Positions 35,291 through 36,447 of a DNA stretch of 55,015 bases are shown here, piece by piece. The translations under genes and the position numbers were made by a program. The DNA is taken from assembly GCA_026025075.1 (NCBI GenBank), contig JAPEUI010000104.1:1-55015 (forward strand), read 5' to 3'. This stretch comes from Vezdaea acicularis (taxonomy: Eukaryota). A model generated the notes under the pieces. The model ran no database searches, was not told the origin of the DNA, and saw only the letters and a list, made by a program, of their open reading frames with translations. How positions within the stretch are numbered: the first letter of the stretch is position 1; each line of letters begins with the position of its first letter.

Positions 35291-36447
35291 ATGGTCCAGA
35301 ACAAAGGCCTCATCTTCAAAGCAGTCCCCACGGGGATGCCTGTCGAGGGCGAACACCTAACCATCGAGTCCCGACCCTTCGACCCCTCCGCGCCCCCTCC
35401 CCCGAACGGCCTCACCACGCAAAACCACTATATCTCCTACGACCCATACCAGCGCCCACGCATGCGGCCCATGGAAGTAAAATCCTACTTCCCTGCATTT
35501 CCCCTCGGCGCCGCCCTGACCAACCGCGGCATCGCCAAAGTGCTCTCCAGCAACACCCCCGCCTTCCAACCAGGTGACCTCGTCATCGGCATGCTCGGCA
35601 CAGAGGAATACAGCATCGTGGACGAAGCGAGCGCGAAGCAGCTCCGCAAGCTAGACAACCCGCGCCACCTTGCGCCGCCGATCTTCCTCGGGCCCCTCGG
35701 CATGCCCGGCCTGACCGCCTACTCCTCCTTCTACGAGATCGGCCAGCCCAAACGCGGCGAGACGATCCTTATCTCCGCCGCCGCGGGCGCCGTGGGCCAA
35801 CTCGTCGGCCAACTCGCAAAGCACGCCGGCCTGCGCGTCATTGGTAGCGTCGGGAGCGACGACAAACTGCGCTTCATCCAGACGACCCTCGGCTTTGACG
35901 GCGGCTGGAACTACAAGACCGAGCGCACCGCCGACGCCTTGAAGCGCCTCGCGCCCGACGGGCTGGATATCTACTACGACAACGTCGGCGGCGAGCAGCT
36001 CGAGGCCGCGATCGGCGCCATGAACGACTTCGGCCGCATCGTCGCTTGCGGCATGGTCAGCCAGTATAACCTCCCGCTCGACAAGCAGTACGCGGTTAAA
36101 GGCCTCGCGAACGTCGTGGGCAAGCGCCTCACCATCCGCGGCTTCATCGTGAGTGATCCCGGCTTCGGCGGCAAGTATTCGCGCGAGCATCAGGAGAAGG
36201 TCGCGGCGTGGATCGCGGATGGGACGTTGAAGGCGCAGTTGAGCGAGACGGAGGGCATTGATGAGGCGGCGAAGGGCTTTATCGGGATGCTCGAGGGCAG
36301 GAATTTCGGGAAGGCGTATTTGAAGATTAGGGAGCTAGAGCAGGTGGGTTGAAACGTGCTGCATTCTGGTGGGCTTGAGGAGGGATAGGAGAGGGAGGAA
36401 CAACTGCTAATACGGATGGCGATTCTCTGCAGACTTCGAAACTGTAG
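35291..36447 (+). CDS. NADP-dependent alkenal/enone reductase (prostaglandin reductase-like MDR family); ends at 36352 if unspliced or 36447 if the 3' intron is spliced
   Basis: YISYDPYQRPRM, LGPLGMPGLTAY, ISAAAGAVGQLVGQLAK, LDIYYDNVGGEQL, GRIVACGMVSQYN and GRNFGKA. Intron 36344-36432 gives the C-terminus TSKL*. Confidence 0.92.

What the first reader, a model, noticed from the sequence alone, without database searches (positions are those of the whole stretch)
36341..36447. Cryptic peroxisomal isoform: a 3' intron switches the reductase C-terminus from -EQVG* to -EQTSKL*
Seen: the ORF ends GAG CAG GTG GGT TGA. The GTGGGT at 36344 is a donor, GCTAAT at 36406 a branch point, and CTGCAG ending at 36432 an acceptor. 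Removing this 89-nt intron gives CAG ACT TCG AAA CTG TAG = Q-T-S-K-L-stop. Retention gives a complete enzyme with no targeting signal. Known: -SKL is the canonical PTS1, and alternative splicing or readthrough creates peroxisomal isoforms of fungal enzymes such as GAPDH and PGK. Inference: dual cytosol/peroxisome localisation of an NADPH-dependent alkenal reductase, invisible in the ORF track.
Basis: partly seen in the sequence, partly recalled or inferred. Interest (0 to 1): 0.78.

Follow-up and report, generated by a model that had tools for sequence, protein, structure and literature searches.

The report
Hidden peroxisome tag behind terminal intron
A fungal alkenal-reductase gene seems to end at a stop codon, but a small, well-formed intron at that spot would, once removed, add the classic peroxisome address Ser-Lys-Leu, and related fungi hide the same address in the same place.

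Summary
ORF 35291-36352 ends GAG CAG|GTGGGT TGA. An 89-nt GT..CTAAT..CAG intron (36344-36432) would join Gln351 to ACT TCG AAA CTG TAG, giving TSKL*.

Chance is unlikely. Only 2 of 20000 shuffles of the 3' region give an intron-like site plus a canonical PTS1, and this is the only such case among 139 long ORFs in the window.

The gene encodes an MDR double-bond/2-alkenal reductase.

The main new evidence comes from 80 related metagenome loci. Many carry a phase-0 terminal intron at the equivalent place. Of 14 distinct terminal-intron loci, 7 reach a canonical PTS1, against 0.049 expected. In four of these the first acceptor is followed by TGA-G, and an AG 4 nt further on opens a hidden ..SKL/ARL/SRM exon. 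This layout matches Yarrowia MDH2 (Kabran 2012).

In the window only one acceptor exists, so splicing gives the PTS1 form directly. A cytosolic form could arise only by intron retention.

No RNA evidence could be obtained. I judge the intron and PTS1 likely real, and the "switch" unproven. It is a new member of a known kind.

The parts
35291..36343 (+). Exon 1: 351 codons of an MDR double-bond (2-alkenal) reductase, Met1 to Gln351
   Evidence: The ORF translates without interruption. Pfam ADH_N_2 1.5e-19 and ADH_zinc_N 3.6e-19. Solved double bond reductases match at 3e-77. Homologues cover residues 1-351.
36344..36432 (+). Predicted terminal intron, 89 nt, phase 0
   Evidence: GT..AG boundaries, donor, branch point and acceptor read. 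Phase-0 terminal introns lie 9-12 codons after the invariant GK in related loci. Chance controls.
36344..36349 (+). 5' splice site GTGGGT
   Evidence: It fits GTRNGT (consensus recalled). The same hexamer ends the tail in locus L057.
36350..36352 (+). TGA stop, read only if the intron is retained (product ends -EQVG)
36407..36411 (+). Branch-point match CTAAT (branch A at 36410), 22 nt before the acceptor
36430..36432 (+). 3' splice site CAG, the first AG after the branch point
36433..36447 (+). Terminal micro-exon coding part: ACT TCG AAA CTG = Thr-Ser-Lys-Leu (PTS1), then TAG
   Evidence: The hidden exons of L034 and L058 also begin Thr-Ser and end Ser-Lys-Leu.

Best explanation
The gene has two exons. 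Exon 1 (35291-36343) encodes the whole NADPH-dependent double-bond (2-alkenal/alkenone) reductase. An ordinary 89-nt spliceosomal intron (36344-36432) sits just before the end of the reading frame. A four-codon last exon adds Thr-Ser-Lys-Leu.

The spliced mRNA would give a 355-residue enzyme whose free C-terminal -SKL is bound by the PTS1 receptor Pex5, which imports it into the peroxisome matrix. There it would reduce reactive alpha,beta-unsaturated carbonyls using NADPH; this function is inferred from the family only. Unspliced RNA stops two codons into the intron and would give a complete enzyme ending -QVG with no address, which stays in the cytosol.

The window offers only one acceptor and no stop-giving alternative site. 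I therefore expect the PTS1 form to be the main product and the cytosolic form to be a by-product of incomplete splicing, not a regulated switch.

Shown: the sequence signals, the improbability of chance, the equivalently placed intron, and the enrichment of hidden PTS1 in relatives. Inferred: that splicing happens, that import happens, and the ratio of the two forms.
For: - The signals sit exactly as described, and the CAG is the first AG after the branch point.
- Chance: 2 of 20000 shuffles give an intron plus PTS1, and it is the only such case among 139 long ORFs of the window.
- Related genomic loci have a phase-0 intron 9-12 codons after the invariant GK (L014, L016, L034, L036/37, L039, L044, L055, L057, L058/61, L059).
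- 16 of 120 homologous protein models, counted by eye, end with the conserved tail plus 'V[S/C]..', which is a read-through GTxxGT donor.
- Of 14 distinct terminal-intron loci including the window, 7 reach [SAC][KRH][LM]-stop in the reachable frame: the window, L040 and L078 by the first acceptor, and L034, L039, L055 and L058 by an AG 4 nt later. The expectation from shuffles is 0.049. The other frame gives 0 of 14.
- In any frame within 200 nt after the ORF stop there are 9 hits in 57 dereplicated loci. The reverse strand has 1, and shuffles average 1.97 with 0 of 500 reaching 9.
- These loci fall in separate clades of the family tree.
- A sister clade of paralogues ends directly in -SKL or -AKL (L017, L018, L027, L038, L080, and L050 after its own intron). 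Peroxisomal members of this family are therefore common.
- In the AlphaFold model (mean pLDDT 92.5) the last strand is residues 342-345. Residues 346-353 are coil and the last block has pLDDT 47, so the tail is free.
- Precedents are cited.
Against: - There is no RNA evidence. The only two runs holding related sequence gave one contig each, over 35314-35559 and 35701-35922, with nothing on the 3' end.
- The nearest rows in the tree (P0015, L068, L076) show no hidden PTS1, and the window's gene sits on a long branch of 0.38 whose placement is unresolved.
- 5 of the 14 terminal-intron loci have no PTS1-like end at all, and 2 have only near-canonical ends, TRL and SKI.
- Only 5 of 120 listed homologue models end in a canonical PTS1.
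- The intron DNA of the window does not align convincingly with that of the relatives (mean column identity 44%). 'Same intron' therefore rests on position and phase, and the tails differ in length by up to 3 codons.
- The branch-to-acceptor distance is 22 nt here against 9-20 nt in the relatives.
- The residues before SKL (E-L-E-Q-T) are partly acidic. No PTS1 predictor was available.
Confidence: 0.7

Rival explanations
1. Regulated dual targeting. Splicing of the terminal intron is deliberately incomplete or condition-dependent, so the cell sets a cytosol-to-peroxisome ratio of one enzyme through intron retention.
For: Retention gives an in-frame stop after two codons and a complete enzyme. 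The family appears to toggle between a stop and a PTS1 at this very place in other fungi. Splicing-controlled PTS1 with condition-dependent ratios is documented for Yarrowia MDH2, with 1181 against 648 reads and a ratio of 0.9-5.05 depending on carbon source. Intron retention is the commonest alternative splicing mode in filamentous fungi (recalled).
Against: The window has a single good acceptor and a consensus-like donor and branch point, and nothing in the sequence marks it as weak. Stops appear soon in any retained intron, so the early TGA is not a sign of design. There are no RNA data.
Confidence: 0.3
2. Chance look-alike. The gene ends at the TGA at 36350, the downstream GT..CTAAT..CAG is never used, and TSKL-stop is never translated.
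For: There is no transcript evidence. The closest relative in the protein database (P0002, 98% identical) is recorded in the unspliced -EQVG form, although it comes from an ORF caller.
Against: The chance rate is about 1e-4 per 3' end. Relatives have an intron at the equivalent place, and a PTS1 behind it in 6 of 13 other distinct loci against roughly 0.045 expected, the window's own share taken out of the 0.049 total.
Confidence: 0.1
3. The intron is spliced but the tail does not direct import, so it is just a short C-terminal extension. The tail could be masked in the dimer or weakened by the acidic residues upstream.
For: The upstream context E-L-E-Q-T is not the basic context often seen with PTS1 (recalled). 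Import was not tested.
Against: SKL is the strongest PTS1 (passage citing Gould 1989). The model shows a free, low-confidence tail. Paralogues with an even shorter tail end in -SKL or -AKL. Enrichment of PTS1 specifically, and not just of any extension, in relatives argues for selection on targeting.
Confidence: 0.1
4. For the relatives only: the hidden +1-frame PTS1 is reached by +1 ribosomal frameshifting at the UGA (as in antizyme), not by a second acceptor 4 nt downstream.
For: The hidden frame is +1 relative to the stop, and TGA-G-A is conserved in 7 of 7 TGA-type loci.
Against: An AG at +3/+4 is present in all eight loci with a stop directly after the acceptor and a hidden ORF. The window's own junction falls exactly at the codon after that AG (Gln|Thr-Ser..), as a +4 acceptor predicts, and without the extra Glu that a frameshift would add. 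A 4-nt tandem acceptor with this effect is proven in Yarrowia MDH2.
Confidence: 0.1

Closest known systems
Yarrowia lipolytica MDH2 (YALI0E14190g), Kabran et al. 2012, PMC3372373 (passages read)
   Same: [quoted passage not shown] The relatives of the window's gene show the same layout, with two AGs 4 nt apart, the upstream one giving the non-targeted end and the downstream one a PTS1.
   Different: The enzyme is different (malate dehydrogenase) and so is the PTS1 (AKI). In the relatives the upstream site gives an immediate stop rather than P-A-N. The window itself has only one acceptor, so any alternative is intron retention and not a 4-nt shift. Both isoforms were shown by cDNA, reads and microscopy there; none was shown here.
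Cryptic peroxisomal GAPDH (Ustilago maydis) and PGK (Aspergillus nidulans) by alternative splicing, Freitag, Ast and Bolker 2012 Nature (not read; known through passages of Ast 2013, PMC3798809, and Stiebler 2014, PMC4207609)
   Same: A nominally cytosolic fungal enzyme gains a C-terminal PTS1 from a differently spliced transcript, and the signal is invisible in the plain ORF.
   Different: Those are glycolytic enzymes linked to NAD+/NADH balance. This is an NADPH-dependent detoxifying reductase. Here the PTS1 form is probably the default product.
Plant and animal double-bond reductases of the MDR superfamily: Arabidopsis 2-alkenal reductase (2j3h), Zingiber and raspberry double bond reductases (4mkr, 6eow), PTGR1/LTB4 12-hydroxydehydrogenase (1v3t, 2y05)
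   Same: Same fold and domain pair. E-values are 3e-77 to 1e-49 over residues 2-345, and the NADP-binding AAAGAVG stretch is present.
   Different: None of the PDB titles mentions peroxisomes. No splicing-made PTS1 turned up for this family in my searches.
Fungal paralogues of the same family with a directly encoded PTS1 (loci L017, L018, L027, L038, L080, L050)
   Same: They are 52-60% identical to the window's enzyme and end in -SKL or -AKL.
   Different: Their PTS1 replaces the conserved ..KIADL end inside the main ORF. They form their own clade (SH-aLRT 98) and need no terminal intron, except L050, whose intron lies 8 codons earlier.

Membership tests
MDR superfamily, double-bond reductase / PTGR1-LTB4DH-type subfamily | ADH_N_2 N-terminal domain plus ADH_zinc_N Rossmann domain | tested here: met
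   PF16884 1.5e-19 (70.3 bits, cut-off 31) and PF00107 3.6e-19 (69.4 bits, cut-off 31.8)
MDR superfamily, double-bond reductase / PTGR1-LTB4DH-type subfamily | Full-length similarity to solved members | tested here: met
   4wgg and 4mkr 3e-77, 2j3h 5.5e-72, 1v3t 6e-55, covering residues 2-345. The AlphaFold model has pLDDT 92.5.
MDR superfamily, double-bond reductase / PTGR1-LTB4DH-type subfamily | NADPH-dependent reduction of alpha,beta-unsaturated carbonyls | not testable with these tools
   Needs an enzyme assay. The substrate is unknown.
Spliceosomal intron of filamentous ascomycetes | GT..AG boundaries, a GTRNGT-like donor, a CTRAY branch point upstream of the first YAG, and a length of roughly 50-100 nt (consensus recalled) | tested here: met
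   GTGGGT, CTAAT, CAG, 89 nt, branch A 22 nt before the acceptor
Spliceosomal intron of filamentous ascomycetes | Intron present at the equivalent position in orthologues | tested here: met
   Phase-0 introns lie 9-12 codons after the invariant GK in 10 other distinct loci. This rests on position and phase only, because the intron DNA does not align.
Spliceosomal intron of filamentous ascomycetes | Spliced junction seen in RNA | tested here: inconclusive
   Two metatranscriptome runs were laid, and their contigs cover only 35314-35559 and 35701-35922
PTS1 peroxisomal matrix proteins | Extreme C-terminal tripeptide [SAC][KRH][LM] | tested here: met
   SKL-stop, but only in the spliced reading. 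The ORF as it stands ends QVG.
PTS1 peroxisomal matrix proteins | C-terminus accessible to the receptor | tested here: met
   Model: the last strand is residues 342-345, the rest is coil, and the last block has pLDDT 47. This is a prediction on the unspliced form.
PTS1 peroxisomal matrix proteins | Pex5-dependent import | not testable with these tools
   Needs a localisation experiment
Dual targeting by alternative splicing of a 3' intron (YlMDH2 / fungal GAPDH-PGK type) | Two mRNA forms from one gene, one with and one without a PTS1 | tested here: inconclusive
   Both forms are predictable from the sequence (spliced TSKL, retained QVG). No RNA covers the site.
Dual targeting by alternative splicing of a 3' intron (YlMDH2 / fungal GAPDH-PGK type) | Two competing splice sites that select the C-terminus | tested here: not met
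   In the window there is one acceptor and no AG between the branch point and the CAG; the next AG is 15 nt downstream. The sequence pattern is met in relatives L014, L034, L036, L039, L055, L058 and L059 (YAG|TGAG|).
Dual targeting by alternative splicing of a 3' intron (YlMDH2 / fungal GAPDH-PGK type) | Hidden PTS1 conserved among orthologues | tested here: met
   7 of 14 distinct terminal-intron loci against 0.049 expected. 9 hits against 1.97 in the any-frame test. The hits are spread over separate clades.

The most novel reading that the evidence does not exclude
The window shows one state of an old, family-wide targeting module of filamentous ascomycetes. A phase-0 intron sits just before the end of the alkenal-reductase reading frame. 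In many lichen-forming and dothideomycete-like lineages it ends in a tandem acceptor, YAG|TGAG|. The first site puts a stop codon at once (cytosolic enzyme). The second, 4 nt on, skips that stop and opens a short hidden exon ending in SKL, ARL or SRM (peroxisomal enzyme). Other lineages have fixed the PTS1 form (the window, L040, L078), moved the PTS1 into the ORF, or lost it. This would make a small peroxisomal share of NADPH-dependent alkenal detoxification a conserved and so far unannotated feature of these fungi.
Probability: 0.5. Interest if true: 0.72.

Novelty: new member of a known kind. Interest (0 to 1): 0.6.

Why it matters
ORF-based and many ab initio annotations end this enzyme at the wrong residue and so miss its address. 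If the tail works, peroxisomes of these fungi hold an NADPH-consuming reductase for reactive unsaturated aldehydes and ketones, next to the H2O2-producing fatty-acid oxidation that favours lipid peroxidation.

This would add a consumer to the peroxisomal NADPH budget, whose suppliers (Idp and pentose-phosphate enzymes) are already known to be dually targeted (passages). The family-wide pattern offers a second, independent and much more widespread case of the 4-nt tandem-acceptor trick, so far documented for one yeast gene. It also gives a simple sequence rule (terminal intron, stop-plus-AG, hidden PTS1) that could be used to screen fungal genomes.

Tried and rejected
- **RNA evidence.** The look-up of sequencing runs returned only two metatranscriptome runs with 5-6% of the sampled words. 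When laid, each gave one contig at 95-99% likeness, over 35314-35559 and 35701-35922, with no joints. That says nothing on splicing, and I draw no habitat or organism from it.
- **Whole genome.** None is held, so I could not ask whether a second, untagged paralogue exists. There is none within the window.
- **Cluster members of the 98% relative P0002.** I could not see whether a spliced-form protein is on record.
- **DNA alignment of the intron region with seven relatives.** The relatives align with one another around GCTRAC..YAGTGAGAC, but the window does not. I dropped it as evidence of sequence homology.
- **L039 'SRM', L066 'SKM' and L050 'SKL' from the any-frame count.** L050 proved to be a direct-PTS1 paralogue with its own intron. 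L066's hit lies behind a stop that precedes the only donor, so I did not count it as reachable. L039 is reachable only through the +4 AG.
- **L001 (GTAGGT, 56 nt..EKDTKSRI*).** Not counted, because it lacks a CTRAY branch match and may be cDNA.
- **L074, L054, L072, L073, L079.** These had no usable C-terminal motif or ran off their contig. L008, L010, L049 and L065 had under 60 nt of 3' DNA.
- **Earlier notes of this scan.** Nothing relevant was found.
- **Literature on this enzyme family with peroxisomes or PTS1** (listings only). No relevant title appeared. Freitag 2012 (Nature), its supplement, and the 2018 chapter 'The obvious and the hidden' are not in the library and may list more candidates.

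Full report
**1. The observation**

One search shows the + strand ORF 35291-36352. It translates to 353 residues and ends GAG CAG GTG GGT TGA. The features sit as follows:
- GTGGGT at 36344-36349.
- GCTAAT from 36406 (CTAAT 36407-36411).
- CTGCAG ending at 36432.
- ACT TCG AAA CTG TAG at 36433-36447.

Removing 36344-36432 (89 nt) joins Gln351 in frame to Thr-Ser-Lys-Leu-stop. No other AG lies between the branch point and the CAG.

**2. Is it more than chance?**

I shuffled the 3' region 20000 times, keeping dinucleotide content.
- 175 shuffles gave any donor/branch/acceptor arrangement at the stop.
- 2 shuffles gave one whose product ends in [SAC][KRH][LM].
- Of 139 stop-to-stop ORFs of 100 aa or more on both strands of the window, 3 have an intron-like arrangement at their stop. 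Only this one yields a PTS1.

On its own this is suggestive, given how much sequence a first-stage reader sees. The comparative data below matter more.

**3. What the gene is**

- Pfam finds ADH_N_2 and ADH_zinc_N.
- The closest solved structures are plant double bond reductases and 2-alkenal reductase (4wgg/4mkr 3e-77, 2j3h 5.5e-72) and PTGR1/LTB4 12-hydroxydehydrogenase.
- The database search listed 120 homologues. One is 98% identical, from an ORF caller, and has the same -EQVG end. The rest are about 61-66% identical and come from lichen-forming fungi, Dothideomycetes, Sordariales and Leotiomycetes.
- The organism is thus a filamentous ascomycete without a close sequenced relative in that list.
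- An AlphaFold model built on 30 sequences is confident (mean pLDDT 92.5). Its last strand is residues 342-345, followed by coil, and the final block has pLDDT 47. The tail that would carry SKL is therefore free.

**4. Relatives: protein ends**

Among the 120 listed homologues:
- 5 end in a canonical PTS1 (SRL three times, SKL once, SHL once).
- 16, counted by eye, end with the conserved tail followed by 'V[S/C]...'. That is what a read-through GTxxGT donor translates to.

This hinted at a widespread intron at the end of the frame.

**5. Relatives: DNA**

One scan of metagenome contigs gave 80 loci. 75 of them have the C-terminal GxNxGK motif. One search lists 14 distinct loci, the window included, with a donor after the tail, a CTRAY branch point and a following AG.

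- **Position and phase.** Eleven are phase 0, 9-12 codons after the invariant GK: the window, L014, L016, L034, L036 (=L037), L039, L044, L055, L057, L058 (=L061) and L059. The window's donor is 10 codons after it. Three are phase 2 (L040, L078, L075).
- **Immediate stop plus a second AG.** In L014, L034, L036, L039, L055, L058 and L059 the first acceptor is followed at once by TGA and then G, i.e. YAG|TGAG|. Splicing at the first AG ends the protein there. That agrees with the many gene models ending ..DEK..ELK or ..EKE.
- **Splicing at the AG 4 nt later.** This skips the stop and reads:
  - TSGKGSKL* (L034)
  - TSEAFSKL* (L058)
  - VGNGKARL* (L055)
  - TVRSLSRM* (L039)
  - TGTRL* (L014)
  - NLKESKI* (L036)
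  - MAAISAELQRD* (L059)
- **Stop inside the donor.** In L040 and L078 the stop codon TAA lies inside the donor (GA|GTAAGT). The first acceptor gives ..ESSSQSKL* and ..ESVGGSKL*.
- **Correspondence with the window.** The window's micro-exon (Thr-Ser-Lys-Leu) starts with the same two residues as the hidden exons of L034 and L058. Its junction corresponds to their +4 site.

**6. Statistics**

- **Frame-specific test.** A canonical PTS1 lies at the first stop of the reachable frame in 7 of 14 distinct loci. The expectation is 0.049, from 5000 shuffles per locus (Poisson 1e-13).
- **Caveats.** I chose the +4 frame after seeing the pattern. Related loci are not independent events. What the number shows is conservation, not seven separate inventions.
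- **Frame-free test made beforehand.** [SAC][KRH][LM]-stop in any of three frames within 200 nt after the ORF stop occurs 9 times in 57 dereplicated loci. The reverse strand has 1. Shuffles average 1.97 (sd 1.34), and 0 of 500 reach 9.
- **Control frame.** The remaining frame gives 0 of 14.

**7. Spread over the family**

A quick maximum-likelihood tree was built from 103 rows with LG+G4 and SH-aLRT support.
- L034, L055 and L058/61 sit among Lecanoromycetes models.
- L039, L014 and L036/37 sit among Dothideomycetes models.
- L040 and L078 sit in a third clade near a Sclerotinia model. That clade also holds three proteins whose ORF runs on to ..EVSxxxSRL.
- Six loci with a directly encoded -SKL or -AKL form their own clade (support 98); L050 needs its own 56-nt intron for it.
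- The window and its 98% relative sit on a long branch (0.38) that the tree does not place firmly. Their nearest rows (P0015, L068, L076) show no hidden PTS1.

**8. Results against my reading**

- No RNA covers the site.
- 5 of the 14 terminal-intron loci have no PTS1-like end, and 2 have only near-canonical ends.
- Most family members have none.
- The window's intron does not align at DNA level with the others. The tails differ by up to three codons, so 'same intron' rests on position and phase.
- The branch-to-acceptor spacing is 22 nt here against 9-20 nt elsewhere.
- The second acceptor in the relatives is always GAG. From memory this is the least favoured acceptor trinucleotide, so its use may be low.
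- The residues before SKL in the window are partly acidic.

**9. Mechanism**

For the window, the simplest account is an ordinary two-exon gene whose last exon has four codons. The spliced product carries -SKL and goes to peroxisomes through Pex5.

There is one strong acceptor and no stop-giving alternative, so the PTS1 form should be the default. The -QVG form needs intron retention.

For the family, the likeliest account is a 4-nt tandem acceptor that sends a minor share of the enzyme to peroxisomes. This is exactly the mechanism proven for Yarrowia MDH2:
- C-terminal ends P-A-N or A-K-I;
- 7 against 4 cDNA clones;
- 1181 against 648 reads;
- a ratio that varies with carbon source;
- both localisations shown (Kabran 2012, passages; summarised in Ast 2013).

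A +1 frameshift at the UGA is a weaker alternative for the relatives.

**10. Comparison with what is known, and novelty**

Splicing-made PTS1 in fungi is established for several enzymes:
- GAPDH and PGK (Freitag 2012, which I did not read; known through passages).
- 6-phosphogluconate dehydrogenase (Strijbis 2012, from citations).
- MDH2.

I found nothing in print linking this reductase family to a hidden PTS1. The searches were 'alkenal reductase' + peroxisom + PTS1 (1 paper, irrelevant), 'leukotriene B4 12-hydroxydehydrogenase' + peroxisom + fung (10 papers, none relevant by title), and cryptic/hidden PTS1 with reductase names (63 papers matched, 15 listed, and none of those joins the two themes). 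These are listings only, and the Freitag supplement was not available.

I class the window's feature as a new member of a known kind. The family-wide tandem-acceptor pattern is the more interesting by-product.

**11. Verdict**

- The intron is probably real (about 0.85).
- A functional PTS1 form is likely (overall about 0.7).
- A regulated switch is unproven.
- Interest is moderate to good (0.6), mainly because the comparative pattern makes a conserved, unannotated peroxisomal isoform directly testable.

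Noticed in passing
L034, L058/L061, L055, L039, L014, L036/L037, L059 (3' ends): In these relatives the terminal intron ends in YAG|TGAG|. The first site puts a stop at once. The AG 4 nt later opens a short hidden exon that ends in SKL, SKL, ARL, SRM, TRL and SKI in six of the seven distinct loci, and in no PTS1 in L059.
   Followed up: yes
L040 and L078 (3' ends): The stop codon TAA of the plain ORF is part of the donor GTAAGT (GA|GTAAGT, phase 2). Splicing at the first acceptor gives ..ESSSQSKL* and ..ESVGGSKL*. 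The two loci are sisters in the tree but differ in intron length (75 and 56 nt) and in the extension.
   Followed up: partly
Proteins P0030, P0037, P0065, P0066: The ORF-called tails ..EVSGDGSRL..EVSAYTSRL and ..EVSADASRL (and ..EVSDASWL) keep the 'VS' of a GTxAGT donor and run on to SRL. Here the unspliced reading may be the PTS1 form, the reverse of the window's logic.
   Followed up: no
L006, L011, L013: Members of the direct-PTS1 paralogue clade end ..EISKLQ* or ..EVSKR*, so an SKL is masked or spoiled by one residue.
   Followed up: no
window 36589-37710 (-): A convergent neighbour has an AlaDh_PNT_N domain (4.3e-27) and is saccharopine dehydrogenase-like by my reading. Its ORF ends at 36586, only 139 nt from the TAG of the hidden exon, so the two 3' UTRs probably overlap.
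   Followed up: partly
window 33990-34701 (-): This Maf-like gene (PF02545 1.3e-19) is split into two ORFs by a short intron. Its donor reads GTTAGC and it has no clear CTRAY branch point, so its signals are weaker than those of the intron under study. The boundaries are inferred from the reading frames only.
   Followed up: partly
L001 (3' end): A possible GTAGGT donor overlaps the TAG stop. A 56-nt intron would give ..EKDTKSRI*, a PTS1-like end. There is no CTRAY match, and the contig may be cDNA.
   Followed up: partly
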